A stretch of DNA of 64,000 nt from Geobacteraceae bacterium (GTDB lineage Bacteria > Desulfobacterota > Desulfuromonadia > Geobacterales > Geobacteraceae), in contig JARKPN010000166.1 of the NCBI GenBank assembly GCA_029975275.1, positions 40,509 through 104,508 on the forward strand. The letters are read 5' to 3'. A program made the position numbers and the translations under genes. Shown here one piece after another: positions 35,595 through 51,098 of this stretch. The notes under the pieces are model-generated. The model made no database searches. It was given only the letters and a program-made list of their open reading frames with translations, and was not told the DNA's origin. Positions within the stretch are counted from its first letter, which is position 1. Each line of letters begins with the position of its first letter.

Positions 35595-36005
35595 TCATCT
35601 GTTCACGCTGATCCTGCCGTCGGTGTCCACCAATGTCTCGAAATATACCTGCCGCTCTCCCTCGGTTACCAGTCGTGCCGTTATCTGGAACCGCAGGGTA
35701 AGAGAGTCGTCTTCTTCCGGGATGAACGTCACGTTTGTACCGGACAGTCTCGGCTCGTACCTCTCCATGGCTGACTTGAGGCTCGATTCTATCTCGTGCA
35801 CCGAATCGGGATAGCTCTGGAGAAAATCAAGAAAATCCGGAACCCCGTAATCGTCCGCAATGGGGACATTTCCCTGTCTGGTGTTCAGCATCTTCTGCAG
35901 ATGGTCGACAATCGAGTCGATGCAGCGTCGCATATCTTCGCTTCCCCGACGATGCGGTTCAGTTTCCCAGGAACGAAGCCGTTCCAGAAGTCGTTCTCCA
36001 ACCAT
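35595..36005 (-). CDS. tssE: T6SS baseplate subunit TssE (gp25-like)
   Basis: LLERL...SIVDHLQKMLNTRQGNVPIADDYGVPDF...RYEPRL is the GPW_gp25/TssE pattern. Confidence 0.85.
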   Translation of the reverse strand: MVGERLLERLRSWETEPHRRGSEDMRRCIDSIVDHLQKMLNTRQGNVPIADDYGVPDFLDFLQSYPDSVHEIESSLKSAMERYEPRLSGTNVTFIPEEDDSLTLRFQITARLVTEGERQVYFETLVDTDGRISVNR

Positions 36006-36066: not shown

Positions 36067-36814
36067 TCAAATCGTCTTTTCCAGAACATCGGCCCTGTCG
36101 CCGGGAGCAGGATGGCTTGAGAACACGCTGCTGTCGTTGCCGTACATCTTTTCCAGTTTGCGCAGTGCGCTTACGGCGGCTTTGGGGTCGTACTTGTTGG
36201 TCTTGATGAATTTGAGGGCATACTTAATCGGCGTCCTTTTCGTTGGCCTGGGAGTATTGTGCGTGCACCAGTTGCTCGGCCAGTTCTCCCAAGGCTTCAT
36301 CTGACAGCTTGACCATGCTGCTGCCGCTTGCAACACCGGCCTTGCGGGCGGCAGATGTAACATAGGCGGTCTGAAATGCCTTCTTGCTGTGACCGAGGCT
36401 CACATGCCCGATTTCGTGGCCTATGACGTAACGCACCTCGTCATCGGTCATCTGGTCCATGAGCCCGGCGAAAACGCGGACGGTCCCGTCGGCCATGGCG
36501 AACGCATTGACATCCTTCACCAGATAGACCTTGATATCGGTTTTCACATTGCCGTCAATCTTCATCCCCTTCGTGAGCTTCGCAAGTCGTTTCGCGTAGG
36601 GACTGGAAGGGGGTGCAAGCTGATTGGACTGGTCGTAGGTCTGGCTCGCCTCCGAGGCGAGTTGCTTTACCTGTCCATCGGTCAGGGTTGCCGCAGAAGT
36701 GAGGTCTTTACCGGCTTCCAGCATGCCGCCGAGGTCGAAACCGGCATTGGCGGGGTGAGTGAGTGCTGCAGATATAAATACCGCTGTTGTGATCTTTCTG
36801 AGTTTGTTCAGCAA
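36067..36814 (-). pseudogene. Secreted M48-family zinc peptidase, split by a +1 frameshift at about 36223-36229
   Basis: ORF 36224-36880 carries a signal peptide (TTG start at 36814 with an AGGAGA RBS), HEIGHVSLGH and ...SQANEKDAD, then a stop. The next frame continues KYALKFIKTNKYDPKAAVSALRKLEK...SSHPAPGDRADVLE, which is the expected continuation of the E-x-x-AD third-ligand region and the M48 C-terminus. Confidence 0.8.
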
Positions 36815-36939
36815 AGTTCTTTCTCCTCTTTCGTGTAGGATAGGCAGGCCAGCGTAGTAAGTTTTGCATAAAGCTATCAAGGTTTTCTTCCTTGTTGTGC
36901 TTTGATGTTACTAACAGAACAACGCTTCACTATTGGAAA

Positions 36940-37419: not shown

Positions 37420-37908
37420 TCAGCCTCTCGGCACAGTCCATGAATCCTCTGACTCAATACCGTTGGGCTCATACGTCCACTTAATTTTCTTGTAGGTGAA
37501 GGATACCTTTTCCATGTGTCCATAGGGATCGCTGCTGGACTCGAGGGTGATAGGCATGTAAGGCTCCATCCCGACCACGATGGCGTCCTCAAGAGTTGTG
37601 GTGAAATAGTGCTCTTCGGTTCCCTGCTTGGTGATCCGATAGTATTTAAGGTTGACGTCTTTCATGTGTTCGCCGGTGCAGAGTGCTTGGTAAAGCTTGG
37701 GTGAACTCTTGTCATACATCTTTGTAATCGTTAGAGGTCCGTGCAGGCGTTTGCCCGACCCAAGTCCGGTGTTCGGATCACGTGGGATGCTGATGGCATG
37801 GTCCAGTGCATAGACAAGGATGGTGTTTTCCCTGCCTTGCATTTCGCAAGACCCGTCGATCTTGCCTTGTTTTTCTCCGGTCAGTGTCAAATGTGCTGGC
37901 ATTGGCAT
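37420..37908 (-). CDS. hcp: T6SS tube protein Hcp (TssD)
   Basis: 162 aa. The Hcp1-family pattern is present (MPMPAHLTLTGEKQGKIDGSC..., HGPLTITKMYDKSSPKLYQAL, KIKWTYEPNGIE). A GAGGAGG RBS lies upstream. Confidence 0.92.
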   Translation of the reverse strand: MPMPAHLTLTGEKQGKIDGSCEMQGRENTILVYALDHAISIPRDPNTGLGSGKRLHGPLTITKMYDKSSPKLYQALCTGEHMKDVNLKYYRITKQGTEEHYFTTTLEDAIVVGMEPYMPITLESSSDPYGHMEKVSFTYKKIKWTYEPNGIESEDSWTVPRG

Positions 37909-38123: not shown

Positions 38124-38570
38124 TTATTCGCAAACTATCGACTCAATTTGCAGAAAGGTCCCGGATTTTGTTAGTTTTAATGTTAGCCTGCAGCGTTTTG
38201 CGCCCTTAGGCAGCCGTTTTGTAAGGACCGCGTTTGTATTATGGTAAGTACAGGAAAGCCAGAACCCGTCTGGATTCTCACCGGGAAACAACCATGTTGA
38301 AACAGATTTTCCTTTTTTGTTAATTGCCTTGTCTGGCACAAGAGTAGCTAAACCTGAAGGGTGTCCGCTGCTGAACATAACATTGTCGACATAATGCTCT
38401 CTTGGCACAACATAACCTTCCCAATTCTCGGGGGACGTTACAACCTTCTCCGAAACGTTTATGCTCGGAGGGCATTGAATGTTTTCGGCATTGGCACTAA
38501 TAGGTAATGAGAAAATAACCGAAATTAATAACAATATGTATTTCGACGGAGGGTGGGTATTTGGTTTCAT
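38124..38570 (-). CDS. Periplasmic STY0301-like protein, putative cognate immunity protein
   Basis: The start is at MKPNTHPP, preceded by a GGAGA RBS. The signal peptide ends ISANA. The mature part (IQCPPSI...NWEGY...FSSGHPSGLATLVPD...WLSCTYHNTNAVLTKRLP...C) matches my recollection of the STY0301 family. It lies directly downstream of the effector-like gene. Confidence 0.6.
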   Translation of the reverse strand: MKPNTHPPSKYILLLISVIFSLPISANAENIQCPPSINVSEKVVTSPENWEGYVVPREHYVDNVMFSSGHPSGLATLVPDKAINKKGKSVSTWLFPGENPDGFWLSCTYHNTNAVLTKRLPKGAKRCRLTLKLTKSGTFLQIESIVCE

Positions 38571-38615
38571 TTTATGTCTCCATATCAGGTTTGATGCATA
38601 CAAGAATCCATCAAA

Positions 38616-39008
38616 TCATTCAATTACATAGAAACTATCCCCATCGTTGCTTCGCTTTGTTCCTTTAGGGCGATTGAAGTTTATCGTTCTAATCTGCACT
38701 TCACCCTGATTGTTCTATTGATCGAGCACCTTAATCCCTTGTTTGTCGTGTGAAAGATATATAGCCGCATGTCTCCCCTGAGCGTCGGTCGGGTAGCTTC
38801 CACTTCCGTCGAACGTAGCAATTGCTGTCCCGCGAGGAATTGCCCCATGGGAAGCGTCTTTAACCTTTATGCCCTTTCTCCACGCGAGTGTTGCAGGTGC
38901 GCCTGTAGCTTGTTGAATAAACTCAACGCACTCAGTATTTCCCTTTTTATTTACAAACTTCTTTTTCCCATATACGCTGCTTTCCGGGATACGTAATGTG
39001 TAAGCCAT
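38616..39008 (-). pseudogene. BPSL0067-like small putative T6SS effector (Cys/His hydrolase-like), interrupted by an in-frame TAG at 38715-38717
   Basis: The strong RBS reads gcaaggaggttctATG. The translation is MAYTLRIPESSVYGKKKFVNKKGNTECVEFIQQATGAPATLAWRKGIKV...GTAIATFDGSGSYPTDAQGRHAAIYLSHDKQGIKVLDQ, then TAG, then in frame NNQGEVQIRTINFNRPKGTKRSNDGDSFYVIE and TGA. There is no signal peptide. Confidence 0.7.
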
Positions 39009-39845: not shown

Positions 39846-41342
39846 TCACGCCGCATTGACCTCTTTATCCAACTTACCCACCAGCGACAGCGTAAAATAC
39901 GCTCCCATGTACTTGAAGTGCGGCCTGACCTTCAGCGACACCCGGTACCAGCCGGGTTCGCCGGGAACTTCCTCGACCGAGATCTCCGCCTGGCGAAGGG
40001 GCCTGCGGCTTCTCACGCCCGGCATGGGGTTATCCATGTCAGAGACGTACTGGCGGATCCAGTTGTTCAGTTCCAGTTCCAGGTCGCTCCGTTCCTTCCA
40101 CGTGCCGATGTTTTCCCGCTGGATGACCTTGAGATAATGGGCCAGGCGGCTGATGATGAACATGTACGGGAGCTGCAGTCCGAGTTTGTAGTTGAGCTCG
40201 GCCTCTTTCCCCTCCTTGCTGATGCCGAAGTATTTCGGCTTCTGGACCGAGTTGGCCGAGAAGAAGGCCGCGTTGTCGCTCCCCTTGCGCATGGTGAGGG
40301 CAATAAAGCCTTCCTCGGCCAGTTCGAATTCCCTTCGCTCGGAAATGAGAACTTCGGTGGGAATCTTGGTCTGAATGGCGCCCATGGCCTCGTACTGGTG
40401 CAGCGGCAGGTCCTCCACCGCTCCGCCTCCCTGGGGTCCGATGATGTTGGCGCACCAGCGATAATTGGCGAAGCTGTCGGCAATCCGAGTGGCAAAGGCA
40501 AAGGCCGCATTGCCCCAGTTGTAATGCCTGTGGCTCGCGGACACGTCTTCCTGATAGTTGAAGCTCTTGACCGGCAGGGTATCGAGGCCGTACGGCAGGC
40601 GGAGCAGGAAGCGGGGGAGGGTGAGGCCTACATAGCGGGCGTCCTCGGTCTCACGGAATGATTGCCACTTGATATACTGTGGGCCTTCCATTATGGATTT
40701 GATGTCCTTGAGAGTCGGAAGGGTATTGAAATCCTCGATGCCGAAGAACTCCGGGGCTACCGCGGCTACAAAAGGCGTATGGGACATGGCAGCCACTGCG
40801 GCGGTGTATTGAAGCAGCCTCATGTCCTGCGGTCCGGCGTCGAACTCGTAGTTTCCTATCATGCAGCCATAGGGTTTGCCCCCGAACTGGCCGTACTCGT
40901 TGGTATATACGATCTTGTAGAGCCCTGACTTGACGATCTCGGTGGCGTCCTCGAAGTCCTCCAGCAATTCGTCCTTGGTGACGTGGAGTATCTCCAGCTT
41001 GGTATTCTCCCTGAAGTCGGTCCTGTCCATGAGGAATTCCAGCGATCGCCAGGCCGATTCAATCTGTTGGAACTCAAGGTTATGGAGTATTTCATCCACC
41101 TGAAGGCTCAGCTTGCGGTCTATCTCGGCTATCATACCGTCGAGACTGGCCTTGGACACCTTTGCCGCTTCACGTCCCGGTTCCAGAAGCTGGGAGATCA
41201 GGGCTTCCACCCCCTTGCGGGTGATGGAATAGGCTTCGTCCGCCGGCCTGAGCCTGGTGGCCTGGACAATCTCCTCCAGGAGCGATTCCTGCAGTACCTC
41301 CTGCTTCTCGACGATTTGAGGATTTTCCTGGTTCGTGTTCAT
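39846..41342 (-). CDS. tssC: T6SS contractile sheath large subunit TssC
   Basis: 498 aa with VipB/TssC family-wide motifs (PYGCMIGNYEF, RLPYG, GPQGGGAVEDLP, YRVSLKVRPHFKY). Confidence 0.95.
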   Translation of the reverse strand: MNTNQENPQIVEKQEVLQESLLEEIVQATRLRPADEAYSITRKGVEALISQLLEPGREAAKVSKASLDGMIAEIDRKLSLQVDEILHNLEFQQIESAWRSLEFLMDRTDFRENTKLEILHVTKDELLEDFEDATEIVKSGLYKIVYTNEYGQFGGKPYGCMIGNYEFDAGPQDMRLLQYTAAVAAMSHTPFVAAVAPEFFGIEDFNTLPTLKDIKSIMEGPQYIKWQSFRETEDARYVGLTLPRFLLRLPYGLDTLPVKSFNYQEDVSASHRHYNWGNAAFAFATRIADSFANYRWCANIIGPQGGGAVEDLPLHQYEAMGAIQTKIPTEVLISERREFELAEEGFIALTMRKGSDNAAFFSANSVQKPKYFGISKEGKEAELNYKLGLQLPYMFIISRLAHYLKVIQRENIGTWKERSDLELELNNWIRQYVSDMDNPMPGVRSRRPLRQAEISVEEVPGEPGWYRVSLKVRPHFKYMGAYFTLSLVGKLDKEVNAA

Positions 41343-41351
41343 GTCTCCTCC

Positions 41352-41837
41352 TTATCCTTCCAGTCCGATTTCAGCCAGAAGTCTCTGGCGGGATGCGTCG
41401 TCCCTGATGAGCGCCTGGATCTTTTTCCTGAACTCGGGGACATTGGAGAGCGGTCCCTTGAGGGCGCGCAATGCCTCCCGCAGCTCGAGAAGACGCTTCA
41501 ACTCCGGCACCTGCTCCACAATCGCCTCGGGGCCGAAATCCTTCATCTTCTCGACCCGAAGACTGACGTTCAATTCGTGGTCCTTGTCCTCGGCGAGCCG
41601 GTTGGGCACCGAGAAATTCAGGGTGATATTCCGGGCCTTGAGGACTTCATTGAAGTTGTCCTTGTCAACGCTCACCGGCTCGCGCTTTTCAACCGGCAGG
41701 TCACTGTCGCTGCCGGTGAAATCCCCCAGGACCAGCATCTTGAGGGGGAGTTCGATCTCTTCTTTCGCGTCGCCGAGAGATGGGCGGTAGACGATGTTTA
41801 CGCGCTCCTTTGGAGCAATGGACGATTCTTTTGCCAT
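41352..41837 (-). CDS. tssB: T6SS contractile sheath small subunit TssB
   Basis: 161 aa. The VipA/TssB pattern is PKERVNIVYRP...ELPLKMLVLGDFTG. Confidence 0.93.
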   Translation of the reverse strand: MAKESSIAPKERVNIVYRPSLGDAKEEIELPLKMLVLGDFTGSDSDLPVEKREPVSVDKDNFNEVLKARNITLNFSVPNRLAEDKDHELNVSLRVEKMKDFGPEAIVEQVPELKRLLELREALRALKGPLSNVPEFRKKIQALIRDDASRQRLLAEIGLEG

Positions 41838-41909: not shown

Positions 41910-44306
41910 TCAGTACTTCGTCAATCGAACCATTTCCGGCATGTCGAGACGCCCAATGCGGTGCAGGACATCGGTGGCCTGCTCCTTGAACCTCTGCTCC
42001 GCCTGGGCGCCCAGGGCAAGCCACGCAAGCCTCAGGCCGTCGATCGCCAGTGCCGGGTCGTATTCTTCGAGCCCGTGATTTTCGATATCCAGCAGAACCT
42101 GGTCGAGATGGGGAAGGGCAAGCCTTGATTTGCCAACCTCCACCAGCATCCTGGAAAGGGCCAATCTCCAGAGGAGTTTTTCACGTTTCGAGGATGATGA
42201 TTTCAGCTTCCGCTGCAACTCTTCCATTGCCTCGATCAGGTTTCCCTTGCGTATCAACAGCTGTATCTCTTCGATATTACGCGTTATAGCCGCCTCCATC
42301 CCGGGTTCTGGCGACGTATCAACGGGGCCGGGAAGTGCTTCACCGGACATGTTTCTCCTGAAAACCATGCCTTCCAGCCACTGCCTGGTCTCCGGGGTGG
42401 CAAACGGCGTTCCATCGGAAAAGGACAGGTTTTCGAGGCCGGGCAGACGGTGCATCAGAAAGGCGGTTTCCTGACACACGGCCTCATGGGCCTTTTCGTA
42501 TCTGCTCCCGAGTCGCGACAGGGCCTCCGCAGCCAGGCGGTTGAGGTCCAGCCAGAAAATATACTGGGAAAGCCTGGCTTCGGCCGCCTTGAGGAGCGCC
42601 TCGGCATCGCCTCGGTTGCGTAGGTCGAAGAGCAGGTTTTTTTCCGTTGTGGTCGGCGGCGGTATCCTGGTCCTGCCGTTTACCGACGGCGGGAGGTCTT
42701 CCACGGCATACCATGCGGCCTTTCTCGCCAGGCGGTAGCAGACTGGAGAGGCAGGATCCTGTTGCCATAGACAGGACGACGCCTCCATGACCTTTTTCAA
42801 ACCTTCACCCAGGGCATCGTCGGCTTCCTGCCGGTTCGTTATCGTTCTCGGGAAAGGTGAATCCTTCGGTTCGAGATCCCGCTTGACGGAGGGGAGGGGA
42901 GCAGGCTCCACCGCAGGTTCCGACACGGCATTCCCCGCAGGCTCATGCCGGGACGGTGCATCGATCGGTTCGGAGAACCTGCTGAAGAATTCCCTGATGC
43001 CGTTAAGGGAAGGGAAACTTTCCAGATGTTCCGACAGAAAGATTTCCAGCCGGCTGAGGTTTTCATTGATGAGCTCGAGCTGGAGAGTGGAAAAGGATGG
43101 GTTTGCGAGCTGTTTAAGGGCTATCCCTGCCTTCTCCACCCACCATTCAATGGCCCGGACGCGCCCTCTCATGCGGTGCTTGGATGGATAGAGGTCTTCC
43201 CAGAAGTGTTCCAGCAGGTCGAGATACAACTTCAACCCCATGGCGAAACCGTCGTTTCGGCGGGTATAGACCAGGGCCACGCTGAGATAGCCGGCAGCGA
43301 CCATGTCCTTGGACCTGTTCATCAGGATGTCGGAGGCGAATCTGCACACCTTTTCCCAATTGACCGATCCTGCCAGCGCCGGCGATGAAAGCTTGTCAAC
43401 CTCGGTCTGCAGTTCGTCGAAGGACGGATCATACCGGATGTCGGCTCCGGCGGGCTTGTCGGCGCTGATCGGCTGCCTGGCCAGTTCGGATATGTCCATG
43501 GAGAACTCCGTTCCAATCATGTTTTTCCAGAATGCGGCCGACGAAACCGACCAGAGCTGATTGAAATCCGAGGATTTCAGCGGTCGCCGATAGACGGCCA
43601 GATATGCTTTTTCCAGCGTTCCGCCCATGAACAGGGCACTCGGCATGCCCTTCAGAGCATCTTTGAACAGCATGTGCCACAGACTGACGTGCATAATCTT
43701 GTCATTGCAGGGCCCCCGGTCCAGGCTGACAAACACCTCTCCCTTGTCGCTGTTCGAAGCCGCCAGCTTTTTCAATTCCCGGTAGTCGAGAAAAGAAGCG
43801 TAGGGGTCCATGGGGGAACCGATCTGGTACAGGCCCTTTCTCTTCGAGGTCAGTGCATCCCACTCGGGGACCGGCGGCCTGACCGTGCGGATCTCCTGTT
43901 CGAGCTTTTTGAGATCGGTGAACAGCTGCGAGGCCAGGTATTCGATCTGACGCCAGGTCTTCTCACACGCGAAAGGAAGCAGATCCCAGTTTTCCTGCCA
44001 GTTTTTGAGGGCGCCCGTTCCGGTGATTACGAGCGGGTAGGGCCTGCCGAAACTGTCGCTGCTTACCCGTACGATTCCGCAGACCAGGAAGTCCTTGCCG
44101 GACTCTTTTGCCCAGAAACGCCATGAACAGAAATCGGGTGCGCTGTTTCCGTTGGCGGTCAGAAGCTGATAGCCGTCCTCGACCCAGTTGAACAGGCCCT
44201 CGAAAAACGGTGTGTCATCCCCCAGCCTGAAATAGTCCCCGGCCGCCGGATGTTTGCCGAACGCGGCCCACTTCCAGTTGTTTTCGCTCTCTATTGTGCC
44301 CAACAC
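41910..44306 (-). CDS. tssA: TagF-TssA fusion ORF (N-terminal TagF/DUF2094 domain reading without a stop into a complete ImpA_N/VasJ-type TssA)
   Basis: aa 1-269 carry the TagF hallmarks AAFGKHPAAGDYF, SWRFWA and DSFGRPYPLVITG. aa 270 onward begins MDISELARQPISADKPAGADIRYDPSFDELQ, a canonical TssA N-terminus, with its own GGAG RBS 6 nt upstream of the ATG at 43499. The C-terminal part is VasJ-like. Confidence 0.8.
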   Translation of the reverse strand: MLGTIESENNWKWAAFGKHPAAGDYFRLGDDTPFFEGLFNWVEDGYQLLTANGNSAPDFCSWRFWAKESGKDFLVCGIVRVSSDSFGRPYPLVITGTGALKNWQENWDLLPFACEKTWRQIEYLASQLFTDLKKLEQEIRTVRPPVPEWDALTSKRKGLYQIGSPMDPYASFLDYRELKKLAASNSDKGEVFVSLDRGPCNDKIMHVSLWHMLFKDALKGMPSALFMGGTLEKAYLAVYRRPLKSSDFNQLWSVSSAAFWKNMIGTEFSMDISELARQPISADKPAGADIRYDPSFDELQTEVDKLSSPALAGSVNWEKVCRFASDILMNRSKDMVAAGYLSVALVYTRRNDGFAMGLKLYLDLLEHFWEDLYPSKHRMRGRVRAIEWWVEKAGIALKQLANPSFSTLQLELINENLSRLEIFLSEHLESFPSLNGIREFFSRFSEPIDAPSRHEPAGNAVSEPAVEPAPLPSVKRDLEPKDSPFPRTITNRQEADDALGEGLKKVMEASSCLWQQDPASPVCYRLARKAAWYAVEDLPPSVNGRTRIPPPTTTEKNLLFDLRNRGDAEALLKAAEARLSQYIFWLDLNRLAAEALSRLGSRYEKAHEAVCQETAFLMHRLPGLENLSFSDGTPFATPETRQWLEGMVFRRNMSGEALPGPVDTSPEPGMEAAITRNIEEIQLLIRKGNLIEAMEELQRKLKSSSSKREKLLWRLALSRMLVEVGKSRLALPHLDQVLLDIENHGLEEYDPALAIDGLRLAWLALGAQAEQRFKEQATDVLHRIGRLDMPEMVRLTKY

Positions 44307-47300
44307 CGTGCTATGCTCCTTGGCGCCTGACCGGACATCGTCGCGGCCTGCTTCTTTATTGCACCGCTACCCATGAATTGATAGTTGACGGTAATATGTT
44401 TAATTCCCATCCGTTCGAGGGCCGTCCTTTCACCCGGGAAATCGCGTGCCGAAAAGGTCCTTCTCCCACCCCGGAAATCCCTCAGAAAGTCAGGGAAGCC
44501 GTCCGATCCCATGTAGTGCCTGGTAAGCACCGTATCCCCCACCTCGATCTGGAAGAGCACATCTCCGCAGGTATCCGGAGACCAGGTGAAGGTCCTGCCT
44601 GCGGGATAGTTGTTGTTGACGAGAGTCTGACTAGCGTTGCCGCATTGAAGTTCCAGCCGCGTAGCGTGGGGTTTCAGTCTCGCCTCAGTATTAGCGTCGG
44701 TGGGAAGTCCCTTGATTCCTACGTTGAAGTTCTGGGGTTTTCCCATTGCGATTACCGTGGCCTGCGCCTTGGCCCCTTGTCCGAGAAAACTGAAGAGCGC
44801 GTGTTCAAGGGGTAGGGCGCCTCCCAGCGCCTCCTTGGCTCCATAACCGTACATGTTCCCCTTCAGGAAGGGCATCGCAGGGCCCTTGGCGAAACGCCAC
44901 GCCAGACCGTCGGGTCCCACCAGCATCGGCATTGCCTGTTGTGGGGTCATTCCCATGGTCGGCGCTAGCACTTGCTCTTCCCACATGGATTGAAGCTGGC
45001 AGGCGCTTTCACGTCTCAGAAAGATCCATAGGAATTCCACGGGACCGTTTATGAGTTGGGAGAAGACGGGGTCGGTCTCGCCCCCGGCCAAACCCGTCTT
45101 CAGTCGGGCACCGGACGAGAATGCAGAGAACAATGGTGATTTCCCGTTTACCGGGTCTTCAGCGAAGGTCTGCGAGGCCAGTTGAAAGGAAAGGTTCCTG
45201 GAAGCCGTTGCTTGCGCGATGGACGATAGGGTACCCCGGTATTCCGCATACGACTTTCCGGCCGCTGATTGGGCCTCGAGTATTTTTGCGTCCGCCTCGC
45301 GTCCGATATTTCTGCGCAGAGCGCTGATAAACCTCCCCCCTCCTGACGTGACCTTGACAACGGCGCCCGTCTTACGTACAGCCCCTTGCATCTTGACTGC
45401 CTGGTACTGGTAGACCTGTTGCAGCCATGGCGGCAGGGAGCCTTCTGTAACCACCGGTTGAAGCTCCAGGGCAATTCTATTCAGCAGGGCGAAATAGGGC
45501 CCCTGTTCGGTTGACATGCGGCCCGCAACCTGACGCCATTCGGCAACCCCGCGGAGGCGACTCGCCCCCCGTGGAAAACCCGCAGCAAAGCCCTGCCAGG
45601 CCGAAACCGCTGCCCCGCGGTACCACTCCAGTAACGCCGCCTTGGCAGAGGAAATTGAGGCGGGTTCCGGGTGGGCGTTATCAAGCTCTGCCATCAGTGA
45701 ATCGATGGATTCCTTTCCCTTCCTGGTAAAAGAGGGAAGGACAGACTTCTCTCCCTCTGCCTGAAGGCTGCCCCCCCAGAATTCGGCGAGCGTTACCGAA
45801 GAAAGGCCGCTCTGGGTGTCTGTCCAGGCCGTCAGCCACTGCATGCTCGGGATCTTCGCGGCGATTGTCTGTCTGAGCCATGACTGGAGCACGGTCGTCT
45901 CCTTGTTCAGGTCACCGGGTTCATCACGCCAGATCAGATAGTAGAGATAAAGTGAGCCAAAGGCTTTTCTGGTCTGCGGAGTTCCGGCCGAACCGTCGCC
46001 AAGGAGGGAGATATACGATGGCTGAGGCATCGACTTGAGGACCTCCAGGTCCTTCTCTTCCTGTCGTGCTTTGAGAATGTTGATCCTTCTCACAAGATGC
46101 ACCGCAAACTGACCGTAGAGTTCATCGGGAGTGGAAGCGGAAATGGTGAGCAACGTACCGGACAGTTGTTTGTCATAGGGCGTAAGCAGGCCCTCCCGGA
46201 ACATGCGGCAGTATCTTTTCTTCAGAAAGCCTTCCAGCTTCAGACTTTCATTGAGCCAGAACCTCGGAAACCACCAATTGCTGTTCTTCTCTTCTACGTT
46301 AAGTATTTCCTTACGGAAGTTGTCCATGGTGACGAGATCCGCTTGCATGCCCCCGCGCAGTGACTGGGAAGCGGTGAATTCCCTTGAGACATCGCGGATC
46401 GTTTTTACGTTTTTCACGAAGGAGAAACTCAACAGACCGCAGAGCGCAATACCGAGGATGACCCACGCGGTGAGGCCAAGGTTGCCCGTCAACATGCGCC
46501 ATTCCAAGGCTTTTCGGGTCGGAGCAAGAAGGTTGCGGTCCCCGGGCAGCACCTTGGCGAAGAAATCATGGAGGAAAAGGCCCTTGTTGGTGCCGGGAAG
46601 TGCCTCTACCTCGCCGGTTCTGCCGAGAGTCCTGCTGAAGTGGGAGTGAGGATTTCCTTCCTGTCGCCCGCTGCTGAAGAAGATACCCCGCAGCAGTGGG
46701 GTTTCCTGATATGGGTTTTTGCGGAAGGCACCGCTCATGAAAGAGGCCAGGCCCTGTTTCAGAGTCTCGAATTCCTCGGGAAACAGGAGCAGCGCCGGAT
46801 CGGCCCCTTTGTCGGCGGGCTGATGCAGCAGCTGGAGACGAAGGTTTCTCAGGCGTTCGTCGATGGTGGCGACCGCATGTTCGACAAAGCTCTCCACATC
46901 TCTGGAAAGGTCCTGATTGACAATCCCCATGGGTTGGTCAAGGCTCTTGTCCGGCAGGTTCTCGCAGAAACGGTTAACCCCCTGGATCAGGTCGCACTTG
47001 GTAGCCAGGACATACACCGGAAAACGTATGCCAAGGGCGCGCATGAGTTCGTCAATACGCTGCCGTATGGTGCGGCCATACTCTTCCAGATTTTCTTTCC
47101 CGGCCTCCAGGAGCCTGTCGGCGGCCACGGTCACTATCAGGCCGTTGAGCGGTTCCATGCGCCGATATTTCAGCAGCAGCGACAGAAACCTTTGCCATTC
47201 GTCCTTGTCCCTTCCCTCGTTTATCGGTATGGCGTAACGGCCGGCAGTATCGAGTACCACCGCCTGCTCAAAAAACCACCATTCGCACTGCCTGGTCCCC

Positions 47301-47767
47301 GACACCCCGGTAACCCGTCCCCTGTCACTGAACGGAGAAGCAAGCCTGGCGCTGTTCAGTGACGTGGTCTTACCGGATCCGCTTTCACCGATTACCATGT
47401 ACCAGGGGAGAACGTAGAGTGGGTTACCGAGTTTCTTCAGATGCGATTTCCTAACCGTTTCTATCGCGGCTCTCCACTTTTCCTGCAGATCCTTCATCTC
47501 GCTTTTTTCTTTTTCCGAGACGGTACGCAGACGGGCAATATCCTGATCGCTTATGTCCCTGACGAAGTTCTGTTCCCTGCGTCGCAACCAGAGCTTTCTT
47601 GCGAATATGAAACCGAAAGCCAACCCTGTCAGCAGCAGAATCAGAAAGAAACCGACCCACCACGGCCAGTTGATGACTACAACAAAACCAAAGATCAACA
47701 GAACGAGGAGGATACACGCTGCGATAAGGAGTGTTATCTTGAGAAATTTTTTTATTCTATCTTTCAT
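44291..47767 (-). CDS. tssM: T6SS membrane complex protein TssM (IcmF)
   Basis: 1158 aa with N-terminal TM helices and a Walker A motif (GESGSGKTTSL). The IcmF-related and C-terminal domains are present. It overlaps tagF by 16 nt and follows tssL by 1 nt. Confidence 0.93.
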   Translation of the reverse strand: MKDRIKKFLKITLLIAACILLVLLIFGFVVVINWPWWVGFFLILLLTGLAFGFIFARKLWLRRREQNFVRDISDQDIARLRTVSEKEKSEMKDLQEKWRAAIETVRKSHLKKLGNPLYVLPWYMVIGESGSGKTTSLNSARLASPFSDRGRVTGVSGTRQCEWWFFEQAVVLDTAGRYAIPINEGRDKDEWQRFLSLLLKYRRMEPLNGLIVTVAADRLLEAGKENLEEYGRTIRQRIDELMRALGIRFPVYVLATKCDLIQGVNRFCENLPDKSLDQPMGIVNQDLSRDVESFVEHAVATIDERLRNLRLQLLHQPADKGADPALLLFPEEFETLKQGLASFMSGAFRKNPYQETPLLRGIFFSSGRQEGNPHSHFSRTLGRTGEVEALPGTNKGLFLHDFFAKVLPGDRNLLAPTRKALEWRMLTGNLGLTAWVILGIALCGLLSFSFVKNVKTIRDVSREFTASQSLRGGMQADLVTMDNFRKEILNVEEKNSNWWFPRFWLNESLKLEGFLKKRYCRMFREGLLTPYDKQLSGTLLTISASTPDELYGQFAVHLVRRINILKARQEEKDLEVLKSMPQPSYISLLGDGSAGTPQTRKAFGSLYLYYLIWRDEPGDLNKETTVLQSWLRQTIAAKIPSMQWLTAWTDTQSGLSSVTLAEFWGGSLQAEGEKSVLPSFTRKGKESIDSLMAELDNAHPEPASISSAKAALLEWYRGAAVSAWQGFAAGFPRGASRLRGVAEWRQVAGRMSTEQGPYFALLNRIALELQPVVTEGSLPPWLQQVYQYQAVKMQGAVRKTGAVVKVTSGGGRFISALRRNIGREADAKILEAQSAAGKSYAEYRGTLSSIAQATASRNLSFQLASQTFAEDPVNGKSPLFSAFSSGARLKTGLAGGETDPVFSQLINGPVEFLWIFLRRESACQLQSMWEEQVLAPTMGMTPQQAMPMLVGPDGLAWRFAKGPAMPFLKGNMYGYGAKEALGGALPLEHALFSFLGQGAKAQATVIAMGKPQNFNVGIKGLPTDANTEARLKPHATRLELQCGNASQTLVNNNYPAGRTFTWSPDTCGDVLFQIEVGDTVLTRHYMGSDGFPDFLRDFRGGRRTFSARDFPGERTALERMGIKHITVNYQFMGSGAIKKQAATMSGQAPRSIARCWAQ

Positions 47768-47768
47768 C

Positions 47769-48449
47769 TCAGTTCGATACCGTCCTTATGAAATGTTCCC
47801 CAATGCCGCTCAGGGTGAATCTGTAGATCCCGTACAGAAGACAGAAAAAAAAGACAGGTCCGACAAGGCAAATCGCGAACACGAGTTTTGAACCGAACCT
47901 GATCCTTTGCCGTTCCCTTTCCGCGGGACCTGTCGGAAAGGCTTCCGGAAAGAGGTCGTTGCGTTCAAGGGAAGGGAGTCCGACCGAACTGCCCAGCAGC
48001 AGCTTCAGGTTTGAGGTCTTGATCTGTTCAAGCTGGTATTCGTCTCCCGGGTGGCAGTAGCGCCCGGTGAATCCGAGAGCGAGGCAAAGGTAAAAGACCT
48101 CCCGCACCTCTCTTTGGTGGAGTCCTATGGAGCTCAGACGATCAAAGAACTCTTCTCCGGCATCGGTGGTGTTGTAAAACTGCCTCTGAAGCTGGTCCTT
48201 CAGCCATATGCTACGCTCTCTCCAGGGTGCATTGAGCAGGGCTTCGTCGATCCACGCGCATACGGCGAAGCGGGCCTGTTCAAAATCCTCCCTCGGGAAG
48301 CCGCCTCGTGCCACTCCCCCCTCGCTTTCCGCGAGGAGCCTGCTTATGTCTGCCTTTACCTGCTCACAGGTCGGATGCTTGCTCTCGACGGTTTGAAGAA
48401 AAAAAGACACATATGCAAAAATGTTGATAAAACAGTCACTTAAATGCAT
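47769..48449 (-). CDS. tssL: T6SS membrane complex protein TssL (DotU family, no OmpA extension)
   Basis: ARFAVCAWIDE, FFDRL, VREVFYLCLALGFTGRY and a C-terminal TM helix are present. A GGAGG RBS lies upstream. Confidence 0.88.
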   Translation of the reverse strand: MHLSDCFINIFAYVSFFLQTVESKHPTCEQVKADISRLLAESEGGVARGGFPREDFEQARFAVCAWIDEALLNAPWRERSIWLKDQLQRQFYNTTDAGEEFFDRLSSIGLHQREVREVFYLCLALGFTGRYCHPGDEYQLEQIKTSNLKLLLGSSVGLPSLERNDLFPEAFPTGPAERERQRIRFGSKLVFAICLVGPVFFFCLLYGIYRFTLSGIGEHFIRTVSN

Positions 48450-48816: not shown

Positions 48817-49183
48817 TTACGCGGGTAAGTTGCTGGAGTATATAAATTTTGAAGGAAAGGTAAAGTAATCCTGAAGAAGTTGATAGCCGGAAAACACATG
48901 AGAAAATCCGGGGAGAAGCGCCTCATCCTGACCGAAACCGACCGGCATCAGGCAACCGGGAGGGAGGATCACGGCGGCTCTACCTTTGACCGGCGTGATT
49001 GTCATACGTGTGACATCATTACGGAGGAGAGTATAGAGTTCGGTGTCTAATGCATAATCGCCGGACATTGGGAGAGGGGAAGATCGTTCAGGACAAGTGA
49101 AAGCCTGAGTTCCGGAGCGCCTCTCATCGACCGGCCGAAACAAACATCCCTCAGTTCAAGCGGATGGAGTTCCACGTCGTCAT
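48817..49183 (-). pseudogene. tssF: tssF relic (about 120 codons in two frames; both ends of the gene missing)
   Basis: One frame reads FYDDVELHPLELRDV...GAPELRLSLVLNDLPLSQ. A second frame (ORF 48817-49143) reads GDYALDTELYTLLRND...LMPVGFGQDEALLPGFSHVFSGYQLLQDYFTFPSKFIY. The latter matches the TssF/ImpG signature GF..DEALLP....F.GYRLLQEYFAFPEKF. Confidence 0.7.
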
Positions 49184-49188
49184 AAAAC

Positions 49189-50577
49189 TTATCTACCCAC
49201 CACCATCAGTTCCACGTCGGTTCCCTCGGGAGCGTTGTTCCAGTGAAGCGCAAGCGAACGGTTCCTTTCCACCGAATGCCACTGTTCATCGTGATGGTTA
49301 ATGGTGAAATAGAACGTATTGGCCCGGCGGGGAAGCTCCTGGGGCGGGACCTGAAGGTACTCCAGCGCGATGCCCGGAAGCGCCTGGGTGACCAGCATGT
49401 GCAGCTGCTCCCCTGAGCTCAGTTTGGCGATGTCCTCTATGGTCGGCACCACGGCCTTTGGATCCGCGTCGGTCTTTATTGCCAGATAGTAGCGGTTGCG
49501 TCCCTCGAAGACGGCTGGCTTAAGCTCAGCGGCGAAGAAAGTTCCGTCATGCGCCAGGCGAATCACGTATTCCGGACCGGCTGTAATTTCGTCGAGGAGA
49601 TGCGAGATCATGTCCTGAAGTGCCGAAAAGCACCCCCACAAGTCACGGTGGTCGTAATCCGGAATGCTGGTTTGGCCGTCCTTCAGTTCCCCCAAGACGC
49701 TAACTTCTTCGGAAAATGTAGTGAGCTCGCCCACAAGCTGTTTTAGCGCCCCATAGAGAAACCAGGGGTGGACGTGTTCCGTCTTCGTGAAATGTACAAG
49801 AAGCGGGACATAGCGATTGATGGACCTGAGCGCCAGGAAATAGACCATGTCCCTTGAGCCGAATTCCGCCGTCTGGACTCCTCGCTTGCTCTTATGCTCT
49901 TCAAGCTGGTATGCCCTTGCGGTAACCTGTTCCCTTATCTCTTCAGCCAGCTTCCGAAGGGGCACCGAAGCGTTGCAGGCAATTGAAGGGGGGATGTAGT
50001 CTTCTGAAAGCCTGGTTTCCGTACCGAACTTTTCCAACCGGGCCAGAGGTATGAGCTGGTAGTCTCCCAGCTTGTGCATTTCCGTTTCCCAGAAGATCTT
50101 CAGCACGAAGTAAAGCCTTCTCACCTGTCCTCCCGGCCCCCCGGCGTGAAGGTCGCCGAACTCATCGGAATCGTTCGTTGCCACGAAACGCGTGTGTACC
50201 GATTCAAAACCTTCCAACGCCTGAAGAACGGTGACGTTTTCCCCCTCATCCGTCCAGTTCTTGAGGCCGAGATATACGGTTAGCGGCTTTCCGTCCTTCA
50301 CCCAGGCTTCGTCGAAGACGCGGGCCTCCACCAGGGCATTGCCCGGAAGAGACACATGGGTCCCGTCGGGAAACAGGAAATCTCCGTTCTTGAGATTGAA
50401 TGAACCCGTAGGCAGTGCCCCCTCAAGAATCTCCATCTCTCCCACCCCCCAGAAGTCCTGCATCAGGTAACGCTGATAGGGGGAGAACAGTCCCTGAACC
50501 GTTCGATCCAGGAGCTGGAAATGCTGGGGTTGAAGATAGATGCCCTGGTGCCAGAAAAGCGGTCGCTGAATGTTCAT
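49189..50577 (-). CDS. tssK: T6SS baseplate subunit TssK
   Basis: MNIQRPLFWHQGIYLQPQHFQLLDR is the canonical TssK N-terminus. The protein is 462 aa. Confidence 0.93.
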   Translation of the reverse strand: MNIQRPLFWHQGIYLQPQHFQLLDRTVQGLFSPYQRYLMQDFWGVGEMEILEGALPTGSFNLKNGDFLFPDGTHVSLPGNALVEARVFDEAWVKDGKPLTVYLGLKNWTDEGENVTVLQALEGFESVHTRFVATNDSDEFGDLHAGGPGGQVRRLYFVLKIFWETEMHKLGDYQLIPLARLEKFGTETRLSEDYIPPSIACNASVPLRKLAEEIREQVTARAYQLEEHKSKRGVQTAEFGSRDMVYFLALRSINRYVPLLVHFTKTEHVHPWFLYGALKQLVGELTTFSEEVSVLGELKDGQTSIPDYDHRDLWGCFSALQDMISHLLDEITAGPEYVIRLAHDGTFFAAELKPAVFEGRNRYYLAIKTDADPKAVVPTIEDIAKLSSGEQLHMLVTQALPGIALEYLQVPPQELPRRANTFYFTINHHDEQWHSVERNRSLALHWNNAPEGTDVELMVVGR

Positions 50578-51098
50578 TATCTTTCCTTTATCTCCTGAAT
50601 GCTCTCAGGTCCCATGTGAAGATTGATGTTCAGTTTTTGGGGGTTGTTTAGAAGGGAGACCGGGATCTCGTAAGTGCGTACGCAGTTCACCTTATGCAGA
50701 GCATAATAACCCGCGACCAATCCCACGTATTTGGCGCCCTCGGTCCGATCCAGTGCCCCCTTAATCTCCTGTTTCGGTTGGACCACCAGTCTCTTTGCAT
50801 AGGTAACGCCGCCGTCGAAGCGGTTGCACTCCAGGAGCTTCGACAGTCCTCCGTTTTCATCGCTCAACTGTTTGAAACCGTTCAGGTCCTTCAGGTGATA
50901 GACGCAGACGATGAGTGAGTGGGGTTTTCCCTGGTAGAGGTTAAGAAGTGGGTCTCCCTGGAAGCGGAGGGTTATGGCGTCCTTTTCGTGCGTCCATTCC
51001 GGCGGAGAGACGATGGCGGACTTTCCAAAACATGAGCAAAGAAGAAATGGAAGAAGAACGCAGGGAATAGCGAAAGACAGTCTGGTCATTTTGTTCAC
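50577..51098 (-). CDS. tssJ: T6SS outer-membrane lipoprotein TssJ
   Basis: The lipobox is LPFLLCSC. The TssJ-like beta-sandwich pattern is LRFQGDPLLN...HSLIVCVYHLKD...YVGLVAGYY. Its stop overlaps the tssK ATG (TAATG). Confidence 0.85.
   Translation of the reverse strand: MNKMTRLSFAIPCVLLPFLLCSCFGKSAIVSPPEWTHEKDAITLRFQGDPLLNLYQGKPHSLIVCVYHLKDLNGFKQLSDENGGLSKLLECNRFDGGVTYAKRLVVQPKQEIKGALDRTEGAKYVGLVAGYYALHKVNCVRTYEIPVSLLNNPQKLNINLHMGPESIQEIKER

What the first reader, a model, noticed from the sequence alone, without database searches (positions are those of the whole stretch)
41910..44306. tagF reads without a stop codon into a complete tssA (798-aa TagF-TssA ORF with an internal RBS and start)
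aa 1-269 have the TagF/DUF2094 hallmarks FGKHPAAGDYF, WRFW and DSFGRPYPLV. Residue 270 is the Met of MDISELARQPISADKPAGADIRYDP, which looks like a native TssA N-terminus and is preceded by GGAG 6 nt upstream. The locus could therefore make both a TagF-TssA fusion and free TssA. TagF is known as a post-translational repressor of T6SS firing, and TssA coordinates baseplate and sheath assembly. A covalent repressor-assembly-factor fusion is not something I know to be characterised.
Basis: partly seen in the sequence, partly recalled or inferred. Interest (0 to 1): 0.7.

Follow-up and report, generated by a model that had tools for sequence, protein, structure and literature searches.

The report
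Conserved TagF–TssA fusion, two starts
One gene in a bacterial type VI secretion cluster joins a complete TagF (a known brake on firing) to a complete TssA (the factor that drives sheath and tube assembly), and it keeps TssA's own ribosome-binding site and start codon inside the reading frame, so it probably makes both a tethered brake-TssA protein and free TssA; the fusion is conserved across Geobacter and Smithella relatives but I found no paper describing it.

Summary

- **Domains:** residues 1-269 are a complete TagF. Pfam TagF_N is above threshold, the AlphaFold model matches only TagF crystal structures, and the GK and SD..R motifs are invariant or nearly so. Residues 270-798 are a complete class-A TssA (ImpA_N + VasJ; TIGR03362 at 376 bits).
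- **Not an artefact:** the exact protein occurs on at least 23 independent contigs. 110 cluster representatives and 44 species genomes carry the same uninterrupted fusion, including the G. metallireducens GS-15 chromosome (by gene order Gmet_0275, published simply as "tssA").
- **Origin:** sister clusters have separate tagF and tssA genes overlapping by 23 nt, with tssA's SD and ATG inside the tagF 3' end. A one-base indel would fuse them.
- **Internal start:** codon 270 is ATG in 43 of 47 loci. Thr266 (ACG, inside GGAACGGAG) is the most synonymously constrained of 277 codon columns. Local mRNA is unusually unstructured. The two lineages with a non-start codon also lost the SD core. One relative that lost tagF starts tssA at this site.
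- **Literature:** none of the papers I searched describes the fusion.

Two products and a tethered-checkpoint mechanism are inferred, not shown. Verdict: a real, undescribed variant of known parts, moderately interesting and testable in Geobacter.

The parts
41910..44306 (-). tagF::tssA fused ORF, 798 aa plus stop codon, GTG start
   Evidence: The identical protein is on at least 23 contigs.
44316..44321 (-). Shine-Dalgarno AAGGAG for the full-length product, inside the 3' end of tssM, 9 nt before the GTG at 44306-44304
   Evidence: anti-SD duplex -7.2 kcal/mol. AAGGAG or AGGAG is conserved 9 nt upstream of the GTG or ATG start in most of the 25 loci examined.
43500..44306 (-). TagF moiety, residues 1-269 (Pfam TagF_N covers residues 15-135 = 43902-44264)
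   Evidence: AlphaFold model pLDDT 79, pTM 0.81. Foldseek hits only TagF structures: 9t0n E 5e-13, 6iz8 and 2qnu E 4e-8 to 5e-6. G17, K18, D84 and R88 are invariant and S83 is >=90% conserved (invariant in the 20-sequence TagF alignment). Standalone TagF relatives cover 92-97% of it.
43506..43514 (-). Internal Shine-Dalgarno-like element GGA-ACG-GAG (codons G265-T266-E267); GGAG core at 43506-43509, 6 nt before the ATG
   Evidence: T266 is ACG in 24 of 25 sequences (gene-wide ACG share 29%), rank 1 of 277 columns for synonymous constraint. G265 is GGA in 23 of 29 (gene-wide 22.5%). Anti-SD duplex is -6.1 kcal/mol.
43497..43499 (-). Internal start codon ATG (Met270), the native TssA N-terminus
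   Evidence: ATG in 43 of 47 loci, plus 1 TTG and 1 GTG. Standalone TssA proteins align to query 270-797 from their residue 1. Locally relaxed mRNA structure.
41913..43499 (-). Class-A TssA moiety, residues 270-798: ImpA_N/Nt1 (Pfam 278-390 = 43137-43475), disordered linker 447-486, Nt2 about 492-645, linker 651-668, CTD; Pfam VasJ 504-757 = 42036-42797
   Evidence: (6rju E 4e-27; 6riu V. cholerae TssA E 1e-15)
44291..47767 (-). tssM (IcmF-like); its last 16 nt overlap the start of the fused ORF
47769..48449 (-). tssL (DotU)
48838..49178 (-). Frameshifted tssF remnant (equivalent to residues about 124-246 of a 577-aa TssF)
49189..50577 (-). tssK
50577..51098 (-). tssJ
41352..41837 (-). tssB (VipA)
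39846..41342 (-). tssC (VipB)
37420..37908 (-). hcp
35595..36005 (-). tssE (gp25-like); last T6SS gene of the local cluster

Best explanation
This is a conserved in-frame fusion of two formerly adjacent, overlapping T6SS genes, tagF and tssA. It has kept tssA's own ribosome-binding site and ATG inside the reading frame. Shown: the fusion is real, the family collapses to one cluster at 50% identity (consistent with a single origin), and all folded domains are about equally conserved. Strongly inferred: the mRNA is translated from two sites. The upstream start (AAGGAG, 9 nt, GTG, coupled to the end of tssM) gives a 90-kDa TagF-TssA. The internal start (GGAG, 6 nt, ATG at Met270) gives a 60-kDa canonical class-A TssA. 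Inferred mechanism: class-A TssA oligomerises through its C-terminal domain and sits where the Hcp tube and TssBC sheath polymerise. The two isoforms would therefore co-assemble, placing a sub-stoichiometric number of TagF domains at that site. TagF is a post-translational inhibitor or checkpoint that has to be recruited to the assembly site. Fha does this in Pseudomonas and Agrobacterium, and the membrane protein TagZ does it in Acinetobacter, where TagF binds Hcp and blocks tube formation until the spike is loaded. The clusters carrying the fusion encode no Fha, PpkA or PppA, so the covalent link to TssA would replace the recruiter. The ratio of the two isoforms would then set how readily the machine proceeds from baseplate to sheath elongation.
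For: Real and conserved: 110 cluster representatives of 770-820 aa at 48-99% identity carry TagF_N + ImpA_N + VasJ. 44 species-representative genomes carry the fusion, and 40 of them hold complete ORFs without a stop. The exact protein is on at least 23 contigs. It is on the G. metallireducens GS-15 chromosome directly after tssL-tssM, where the gene published as tssA (Gmet_0275) rose 91-fold during DIET growth. One family: only one representative at 50% clustering among 1.84 billion. Origin: in L066, tagF and tssA are separate genes overlapping by 23 nt, with the SD and ATG of tssA inside the tagF 3' end; in L042 they are separate with a 130-nt spacer. Complete TagF; functional-loop residues invariant or nearly so. 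Internal initiation: ATG in 43 of 47 loci, plus TTG and GTG. T266 ACG ranks 1 of 277 columns for synonymous constraint. Mean anti-SD energy is -5.6 kcal/mol against an ORF mean of -2.4 (SD 1.6). Windows centred on codons 266-268 fold at -4.7 to -5.4 kcal/mol against a mean of -9.3 (SD 1.7), with GC 0.43-0.45 against 0.57. Junction residues 260-275 average 63% identity against 12-15% for TssA's real linkers. The only two loci with a non-start codon (GTC, GTT) are the only two lacking the SD core, 2 of 47. In L047 the tagF part is gone and tssA starts at this ATG behind the same GGAACGGAG. Standalone TssAs begin exactly at query residue 270. No FHA, kinase or PP2C genes appear in the window cluster or in the Pfam-annotated contexts L059-L070. 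Mechanistic background comes from PMC5995506, bioRxiv 10.64898/2025.12.08.692957 and PMC6745524.
Against: There is no protein-level evidence for either isoform. The internal SD is moderate: it is not the strongest SD-like site in the ORF (codons 228-229 give -8.15), it is weaker in the Smithella clade (GGAACGGAA, -3.5 to -4.8), and its z-score is only about -1.9. Two lineages lost the internal start, so free TssA is dispensable there and the fusion alone can presumably supply TssA function. Part of the junction's conservation could be protein-level. The TagF moiety shares only 13-15% identity with characterised TagFs, so its partner (Hcp, or something else) and even the sign of its effect are extrapolated. 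Co-assembly of the isoforms is assumed from class-A TssA behaviour. Absence of Fha was checked only within about 10 kb of the gene, not genome-wide. In this particular window the cluster lacks tssG, clpV and vgrG and holds only a scrap of tssF, so the system may not be functional here unless those genes lie elsewhere in the genome.
Confidence: 0.55

Rival explanations
1. Only the full-length fusion is made. The internal GGAG and ATG are not used for initiation. They are conserved because Gly-Thr-Glu...Met is needed in the protein, or because an SD-like sequence slows ribosomes between the two domains to help co-translational folding.
For: The junction peptide is well conserved as protein and is modelled with moderate confidence, not as disordered (block pLDDT 64-79). 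Two lineages carry a non-start codon at position 270 and still keep the fusion. A stronger conserved SD-like site with no obvious start exists at codons 228-229. Other regions of the ORF are as unstructured as the junction (codons 127-131).
Against: Protein-level constraint cannot explain the choice of ACG among four Thr codons (24 of 25 against 29% gene-wide) or GGA among Gly codons (23 of 29 against 22.5%). Non-Met variants include TTG and GTG, both start-capable. The SD core is lost only where the start codon is lost. The same element drives a standalone tssA in L047 and derives from the functional tssA start of unfused relatives. A pausing role would not require a start codon 6 nt downstream.
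Confidence: 0.2
2. Two products are made, but the TagF moiety is not a brake here. It acts as a positive adaptor, for example docking TssA onto the membrane complex or baseplate or handing Hcp to the growing tube. On this reading the fusion is an assembly aid, not a tethered inhibitor.
For: [quoted passage not shown] The fusion is the only tssA in clusters that are otherwise complete, and the G. metallireducens T6SS is expressed and has a phenotype. Lineages that lost the internal start rely on the fusion alone. A constitutive cis-inhibitor on every TssA subunit would seem self-defeating.
Against: Every TagF characterised so far inhibits T6SS dynamics when in excess (PMC5995506; preprint). The loop residues needed for inhibition (GK, SD..R) are invariant or nearly so here. 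No data distinguish the sign of the effect.
Confidence: 0.2
3. The fusion is an artefact or a pseudogene: an assembly or sequencing error removed the tagF stop codon, or the gene is decaying along with the rest of this locus.
For: The local cluster contains a frameshifted tssF scrap and lacks tssG, clpV and vgrG. In unfused relatives a single-base frame difference separates the two genes.
Against: The identical 798-aa protein is on at least 23 independent contigs. 40 complete loci from different species read through, and 110 cluster representatives have the same length and domains. All folded domains show similar conservation (53-63% mean pairwise identity), and motif residues are invariant or nearly so. 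Most fused loci sit in complete clusters.
Confidence: 0.03

Closest known systems
TagF-PppA fusion of Agrobacterium tumefaciens (Atu4331; Lin et al. 2018, PMC5995506)
   Same: An N-terminal full TagF (DUF2094) domain is covalently fused to another T6SS protein encoded in the same cluster. The TagF loop residues (GK, SD..R) are conserved.
   Different: There the partner is a PP2C phosphatase of the threonine-phosphorylation pathway, and TagF acts by binding Fha. Here the partner is the structural assembly factor TssA. No Fha, PpkA or PppA genes lie in the cluster. An internal start can release the partner alone.
Acinetobacter baylyi TagF (ACIAD2683, PDB 9t0n; Engelin et al. 2025 preprint)
   Same: It is the best structural match to residues 1-269 (E 5e-13, TMq 0.70, aligned over the full length). 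It also works in an Fha- and TPP-free context. It needs to be concentrated at the assembly site.
   Different: It is a standalone 327-aa protein recruited by the membrane protein TagZ. Sequence identity is only 14%. Here recruitment would come from covalent linkage to TssA.
Class-A TssA / TsaC (V. cholerae VCA0119, EAEC TssA, P. aeruginosa TssA2; Schneider et al. 2019, PMC6745524; Dix et al. 2018, PMC6232143)
   Same: Residues 270-798 have ImpA_N + VasJ, meet TIGR03362 over the full model length, and show the Nt1-linker-Nt2-linker-CTD layout.
   Different: Described TssA-like proteins have ImpA_N at the N-terminal end. The full-length product here carries a 269-residue TagF in front of it. The WEP motif of class A reads Y-D-P here.
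Standalone tagF-tssA gene pairs of sister T6SS clusters (L066 metagenome; L042 Desulfobacteraceae UBA5623; L065 Planctomycetia)
   Same: The gene order is the same, tssJ-K-L-M-tagF-tssA-B-C-hcp-tssE-F-G-clpV. TagF is 53% identical and TssA 46% identical to the two halves of the query.
   Different: They are two separate genes: overlapping by 23 nt in different frames (L066), separated by 130 nt (L042), or separated by tagJ (L065).
In-frame nested isoform genes using internal initiation (for example CheA long/short, ClpB 93/79 kDa, IF2 alpha/beta). This comparison rests on textbook knowledge and was not tested here.
   Same: One ORF holds a conserved internal SD plus start codon, giving a full-length protein and an N-terminally truncated one that can co-oligomerise.
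   Different: Here the internal start is the retained start of a formerly separate gene, and the two isoforms differ by an entire regulatory protein.

Membership tests
TagF (PF09867 / TIGR03373 / DUF2094) | Sequence match to the family profile above the curated cut-off | tested here: met
   Pfam TagF_N scores 38.4 bits against a cut-off of 27. NCBIfam TIGR03373 scores 40.4 bits against 41.2, missing by 0.8 bits.
TagF (PF09867 / TIGR03373 / DUF2094) | TagF fold over the whole protein | tested here: met
   The AlphaFold model of residues 1-269 (pLDDT 79, pTM 0.81) hits only TagF structures at E <= 1e-3: 9t0n (5e-13, TMq 0.70) and 6iz8/2qnu (4e-8 to 5e-6). The next hit is at E 0.014.
TagF (PF09867 / TIGR03373 / DUF2094) | Conserved alpha- and beta-loop residues required for function (G-K in FGKxP; S-D...R in SDSxGRP) | tested here: met
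   G17, K18, D84 and R88 are invariant in 40 homologues; S83 is at least 90% conserved there and invariant in the 20-sequence TagF alignment. They align with the same motifs in 9t0n and 2qnu.
TagF (PF09867 / TIGR03373 / DUF2094) | Encoded in a T6SS cluster | tested here: met
   It lies between tssM and tssB.
TagF (PF09867 / TIGR03373 / DUF2094) | Post-translational inhibition or checkpoint control of T6SS assembly | not testable with these tools
   This needs genetics and imaging.
TPP-type TagF (P. aeruginosa H1, A. tumefaciens) | Co-encoded Fha (and usually PpkA/PppA) as binding partner | tested here: not met
   No FHA, Pkinase or PP2C domains were found in the window cluster from tssJ to tssE, nor in the Pfam-annotated contexts L059-L070. 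Whole genomes were not searched.
Class-A TssA (TsaC) | ImpA_N domain plus C-terminal VasJ domain | tested here: met
   ImpA_N 95.5 bits; VasJ 222 bits; TIGR03362 376.5 bits against 230, covering model positions 4-476 of 476.
Class-A TssA (TsaC) | [quoted passage not shown] | tested here: not met
   In the full-length product ImpA_N starts at residue 278, behind TagF. The feature is met for the Met270-initiated isoform.
Class-A TssA (TsaC) | WEP motif in the CTD that mediates ring formation | tested here: inconclusive
   The position aligned to W-E-P of 6rju reads Y749-D750-P751. Y749 and P751 are at least 90% conserved in the family.
Class-A TssA (TsaC) | Oligomeric ring at the distal sheath end | not testable with these tools
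   Only a monomer was modelled.
TagF-PppA-type fusion | C-terminal PP2C phosphatase domain | tested here: not met
   The C-terminal part is TssA; there is no PP2C hit.
Nested in-frame gene with internal translation initiation | Conserved start-capable codon with an SD at functional spacing | tested here: met
   ATG 43, TTG 1 and GTG 1 of 47 loci. GGAG is present in 33 of the 43 ATG loci, at a 6-nt spacing where inspected, and a looser GGAG-or-CGGA core is present in all 43.
Nested in-frame gene with internal translation initiation | Nucleotide-level (synonymous) constraint and relaxed mRNA structure at the site | tested here: met
   T266 ACG ranks 1 of 277 columns. The 42-nt windows at codons 266-268 rank among the 12 least-structured of 775 positions.
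Nested in-frame gene with internal translation initiation | Two protein products detected | not testable with these tools
   No proteomic or ribosome-profiling data were available.

The most novel reading that the evidence does not exclude
A single gene encodes both the accelerator and the brake of T6SS tube and sheath polymerisation. Free TssA comes from the internal start, and TagF-TssA from the upstream start. The two co-assemble into mixed TssA rings, so the TagF checkpoint domain is delivered to the polymerisation site by covalent tethering instead of by Fha or TagZ. The translational ratio of the two starts then sets the firing threshold. This would be a third, recruiter-free mode of TagF control.
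Probability: 0.3. Interest if true: 0.7.

Novelty: new variant of a known kind. Interest (0 to 1): 0.55.

Why it matters
How TagF stops or times T6SS assembly is an active question. Fha sequestration is the model in Pseudomonas and Agrobacterium. A 2025 preprint proposes Hcp-ring disruption with TagZ-mediated recruitment in Acinetobacter.

A conserved natural fusion of TagF to the N-terminus of class-A TssA, in clusters with no Fha, PpkA or PppA, independently suggests that TagF acts where TssA acts, at the start of tube and sheath polymerisation, and that proximity is what it needs.

The fusion also contradicts the general statement that ImpA_N is N-terminal in all TssA-like proteins. It offers a simple two-isoform system for tuning a contractile machine, and it sits in organisms that can be genetically manipulated: G. 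metallireducens, where hcp has been knocked out and complemented, and probably G. sulfurreducens. In these organisms the T6SS affects direct interspecies electron transfer.

There is a practical consequence too. These genes are annotated only as TssA, and standalone TagF proteins are mislabelled "VasJ" in one source, apparently by annotation transfer from the fusion.

Tried and rejected
1. **Independent, more distant fusions.** Seven proteins of 747-812 aa (30-34% identity) in the exhaustive search looked like candidates. Pfam showed two ImpA_N domains plus VasJ and no TagF. I rejected them; the fusion is one family.
2. **Anti-SD energy as a unique marker.** The site before Met270 is strong but not the strongest in the ORF; codons 228-229 (Gly-Gly, usually GGAGG) score -8.15. 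I therefore relied on synonymous constraint, start-codon conservation, co-loss of SD and start, and the unfused and deleted relatives.
3. **Sequence-only comparison with solved TagFs.** This was weak (E 0.014 for the single sequence, 3e-4 for the profile; P. aeruginosa TagF E about 0.5). Fold comparison was needed.
4. **Full-length AlphaFold model.** It gives pTM 0.53, and I had no access to inter-domain error estimates, so it cannot say whether TagF packs against Nt1.
5. **Literature.** Searches for "TagF-TssA", DUF2094 with ImpA_N, the Geobacter locus tags, and the TssA and TagF classification papers gave no description of the fusion. The library lacks many subscription-journal papers, so absence is not proof.
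6. **Programmed frameshifting near codons 260-262 (TGG AAA AAC).** I considered this only by eye and did not pursue it. There is no canonical slippery heptamer, and no test was run.
7. **Genome-wide absence of Fha, PpkA and PppA.** This could not be tested; only about 10-kb flanks were available.
Full report
**1. Observation**

The window contains one uninterrupted ORF of 798 codons at 41910..44306. It is on the minus strand and starts with GTG. The start lies 13 nt before the TAG stop of the upstream gene tssM (44291..47767), an overlap of 16 nt.

Met270 is the ATG at 43499-43497, and GGAG lies at 43509-43506, 6 nt upstream.

Domain scores:

| Library | Model | Residues | Bits | Cut-off |
|---|---|---|---|---|
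| Pfam | TagF_N | 15-135 | 38.4 | 27 |
| Pfam | ImpA_N | 278-390 | 95.5 | 26.9 |
| Pfam | T6SS_VasJ | 504-757 | 222 | 26.2 |
| NCBIfam | TssA TIGR03362 | 275-762 (whole model) | 376.5 | 230 |
| NCBIfam | TagF TIGR03373 | 16-122 | 40.4 | 41.2 |

**2. The fusion is real and conserved**

- The identical protein is encoded on at least 23 independently assembled contigs from different sequencing runs.
- A search of 5.8 billion clustered proteins returned 110 representatives of 770-820 aa at 48-99% identity, all with the three Pfam domains.
- A scan of one genome per species found the fusion in 44 genomes: Geobacteraceae, Desulfuromonadaceae, Pelotalea chapellei, Geobacter hydrogenophilus, Smithellaceae and Syntrophaceae. 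In 40 of them the ORF is complete and has no stop.
- One homologue (P0091) lies on the G. metallireducens GS-15 chromosome directly after tssL and tssM. By gene order this is Gmet_0275. A study of that strain lists the gene simply as "tssA, baseplate complex protein", reports it 91-fold up during DIET growth, and shows a phenotype for an hcp knockout (PMC10580878).
- In an exhaustive HMMER search of 1.84 billion representatives at 50% identity, the fused family collapses to a single representative, which is consistent with one origin.

**3. Each half is a complete protein**

*TagF half.* A profile of residues 1-269 finds 374 relatives. The best 120 are standalone TagF proteins of 237-297 aa that cover 92-97% of the query at 42-55% identity. 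An AlphaFold model of residues 1-269 (pLDDT 79, pTM 0.81) matches only TagF crystal structures at E <= 1e-3. These are A. baylyi TagF 9t0n (E 5e-13, TMq 0.70, aligned over the full length) and P. aeruginosa TagF 6iz8/2qnu (E 4e-8 to 5e-6). The residues needed for TagF function in Pseudomonas and Agrobacterium are G17, K18, S83, D84 and R88 here. G17, K18, D84 and R88 are invariant in 40 homologues; S83 is at least 90% conserved there and invariant in the 20-sequence TagF alignment (PMC5995506).

*TssA half.* It matches solved long TssA proteins (6rju E 4e-27; 6riu, V. cholerae TssA, E 1e-15). The full-length model shows Nt1, a disordered linker (447-486), Nt2, a second linker (651-668) and the CTD. 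This is the class-A "cap/chaperone" TssA of Schneider et al. (PMC6745524).

*Conservation by region (mean pairwise identity).*

| Region | Identity |
|---|---|
| TagF (9-259) | 60% |
| Junction (260-275) | 63% |
| Nt1 (276-445) | 59% |
| Linker (447-486) | 15% |
| Nt2 (492-645) | 63% |
| Linker (651-668) | 12% |
| CTD (669-797) | 53% |

**4. Origin**

The closest standalone relative (L066; TagF 53% and TssA 46% identical to the two halves) has the same gene order as the window: tssJ-K-L-M-tagF-tssA-B-C-hcp-hcp-tssE-F-G-clpV. There tagF and tssA are separate genes that overlap by 23 nt in different frames, and the tssA SD (GAGGTGAAGGA) and ATG sit inside the tagF 3' end. In L042 (Desulfobacteraceae) the two genes are separated by about 130 nt. 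In a Planctomycetia genome tagJ lies between them. A one-base indel just before the tssA ATG would therefore create the fusion and leave the tssA initiation signals intact.

**5. The internal start is maintained by selection**

- **(a) Start codon.** Codon 270 is ATG in 43 of 47 loci with DNA. One locus has TTG and one has GTG, both start-capable. At the protein level, Met is present in 104 of 111 sequences.
- **(b) Synonymous constraint.** The upstream nucleotides GGA-ACG-GAG are held at synonymous positions. Thr266 is ACG in 24 of 25 non-redundant sequences, against 29% ACG among Thr codons gene-wide. It is the most constrained of 277 informative codon columns. Gly265 is GGA in 23 of 29, against 22.5% gene-wide.
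- **(c) SD strength.** The mean anti-SD hybridisation energy before Met270 is -5.6 kcal/mol, against an ORF-wide mean of -2.4 (SD 1.6). Met270 is one of only two conserved Met columns.
- **(d) mRNA structure.** The 42-nt windows centred on codons 266-268 are among the least structured and most AT-rich of 775 positions. They fold at -4.7 to -5.4 kcal/mol against a mean of -9.3 (SD 1.7), with GC 0.43-0.45 against 0.57.
- **(e) Junction versus linkers.** The junction peptide is as conserved as the folded domains, unlike TssA's own linkers.
- **(f) Co-loss.** The only two loci with a non-start codon at position 270 (GTC, GTT) are also the only two of 47 that lack the SD core. By my own calculation the chance of this is about 1 in 1081. 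The numbers are small and the core criterion is loose.
- **(g) A natural deletion.** In L047 (a Geobacter MAG, with Ns nearby) the tagF part has been replaced by two unrelated ORFs. tssA there starts at the equivalent ATG, behind the same GGAACGGAG.
- **(h) Native N-terminus.** Dozens of standalone TssA representatives align from their residue 1 to query residue 270.

The upstream start also has a conserved SD: AAGGAG or AGGAG 9 nt before GTG or ATG in most of the 25 loci examined, lying inside the tssM 3' end where the two genes overlap. In the window the anti-SD duplex is -7.2 kcal/mol at the upstream start and -6.1 kcal/mol at the internal one. Both starts therefore look functional. The predicted products are 90.4 and 59.7 kDa.

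**6. Mechanism (inferred)**

Class-A TssA forms a CTD-mediated ring. It first marks the assembly site and then rides the distal end of the growing sheath (PMC6745524).

TagF is a post-translational inhibitor. In P. aeruginosa and A. tumefaciens it binds Fha (PMC5995506). In A. baylyi, which has no Fha or TPP, it binds Hcp, breaks Hcp hexamers and blocks sheath elongation until the VgrG spike is loaded. There it needs the membrane protein TagZ to concentrate it at the assembly site (preprint 10.64898/2025.12.08.692957).

The clusters carrying the fusion encode no FHA, kinase or PP2C proteins within the regions examined. The TagF moiety is structurally closest to the A. baylyi protein.

The most economical reading is that covalent attachment to TssA replaces the recruiter. 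Free TssA and TagF-TssA would co-assemble, so a few TagF domains sit exactly where the Hcp tube is primed. The translational ratio of the two starts would set the threshold.

Steps shown: the fusion, the completeness of both halves, conservation of both initiation signals, and the absence of Fha/TPP genes locally. Steps inferred: two products, co-assembly, the partner of TagF, and the direction of its effect.

Two lineages lost the internal start, so the fusion alone can apparently serve as TssA. That keeps open a rival reading in which TagF acts as a positive adaptor.

**7. Comparison with what is known, and novelty**

The only described TagF fusion is TagF-PppA of Agrobacterium. Recent TagF phylogenomics, a 2026 review of accessory factors and the two TssA classification papers do not mention a TagF-TssA protein. 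Schneider et al. state that ImpA_N is at the N-terminal end of all TssA-like proteins. Searches for the architecture and for the Geobacter locus tags gave nothing further.

I therefore rate it a new variant of a known kind. It is common in databases, annotated as plain TssA, but undescribed in the papers I could search.

**8. Caveat specific to this window**

The local cluster runs tssJ, tssK, [tssF scrap], tssL, tssM, tagF::tssA, tssB, tssC, small ORFs, hcp, an M48-like gene, tssE. It lacks tssG, clpV and vgrG anywhere in the 64 kb. Most relatives have contiguous tssE-F-G and clpV or vgrG. Either the missing genes lie elsewhere in the genome, as in the split Geobacter loci (PMC2660368), or this copy of the system is decaying. 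This does not affect the family-level conclusion.

Noticed in passing
window 48838-49178 (-), between tssK and tssL: A frameshifted remnant of tssF, equivalent to residues about 124-246 of 577. No tssG, clpV or vgrG exists anywhere in the 64-kb window, whereas most fused relatives have contiguous tssE-F-G plus clpV or vgrG. The local T6SS is either split across the genome or decaying.
   Followed up: partly
P0245, P0356, P0362, P0366, P0377, P0379, P0386: Distant TssA-like proteins of 747-812 aa carry two tandem ImpA_N domains followed by VasJ. This is a different N-terminal elaboration of class-A TssA that I have not seen described. P0379 sits on a 3.2-Mb NCBI contig.
   Followed up: partly
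window about 43620-43625 (-), codons G228-G229 of the fused ORF; homologues: The strongest conserved anti-SD-complementary site in the ORF family (mean -8.15 kcal/mol) lies at the invariant Gly228-Gly229, usually encoded GGAGG, with no obvious start codon downstream. The query itself has GGCGGA. It could be chance from Gly-Gly codons or a pause site.
   Followed up: no
L047 6603-9853: In a Geobacter MAG the tagF moiety is replaced by two unrelated ORFs (680 aa and 413 aa) between tssM and tssA, and tssA starts at the Met270-equivalent codon. The inserted genes were not identified, and Ns occur near 9941.
   Followed up: partly
one search hit list (for example P0125, P0130, P0139): Many standalone TagF proteins of about 250 aa are named 'type VI secretion system protein VasJ' by one source. 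This is probably annotation transfer from the fused TagF-TssA proteins.
   Followed up: no
L005, L009, L027, L040, L047: Several related clusters have a second TssF-like gene immediately after tssG (tssF-tssG-tssF').
   Followed up: no
P0112 (489 aa), P0120 (540 aa): These are truncated versions of the fusion with TagF_N + ImpA_N but no VasJ C-terminal domain, found on long contigs (117 kb and 287 kb). They could be pseudogenes or a distinct short form.
   Followed up: no
window 36224-36880 (-) and small ORFs between tssC and hcp (38124-38603, 38715-39008); L068 7898-8400: An M48-peptidase-like gene and several small ORFs without family hits are interspersed among the T6SS core genes. An M48-like gene recurs in a relative's cluster. 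They may be an effector and immunity pair or accessory genes.
   Followed up: no
codons 127-136 of the fused ORF (window about 43899-43928, -): This is the least-structured, most AT-rich stretch of the ORF across homologues (mean -3.3 kcal/mol, GC 0.42), more extreme than the junction. No explanation was sought.
   Followed up: no
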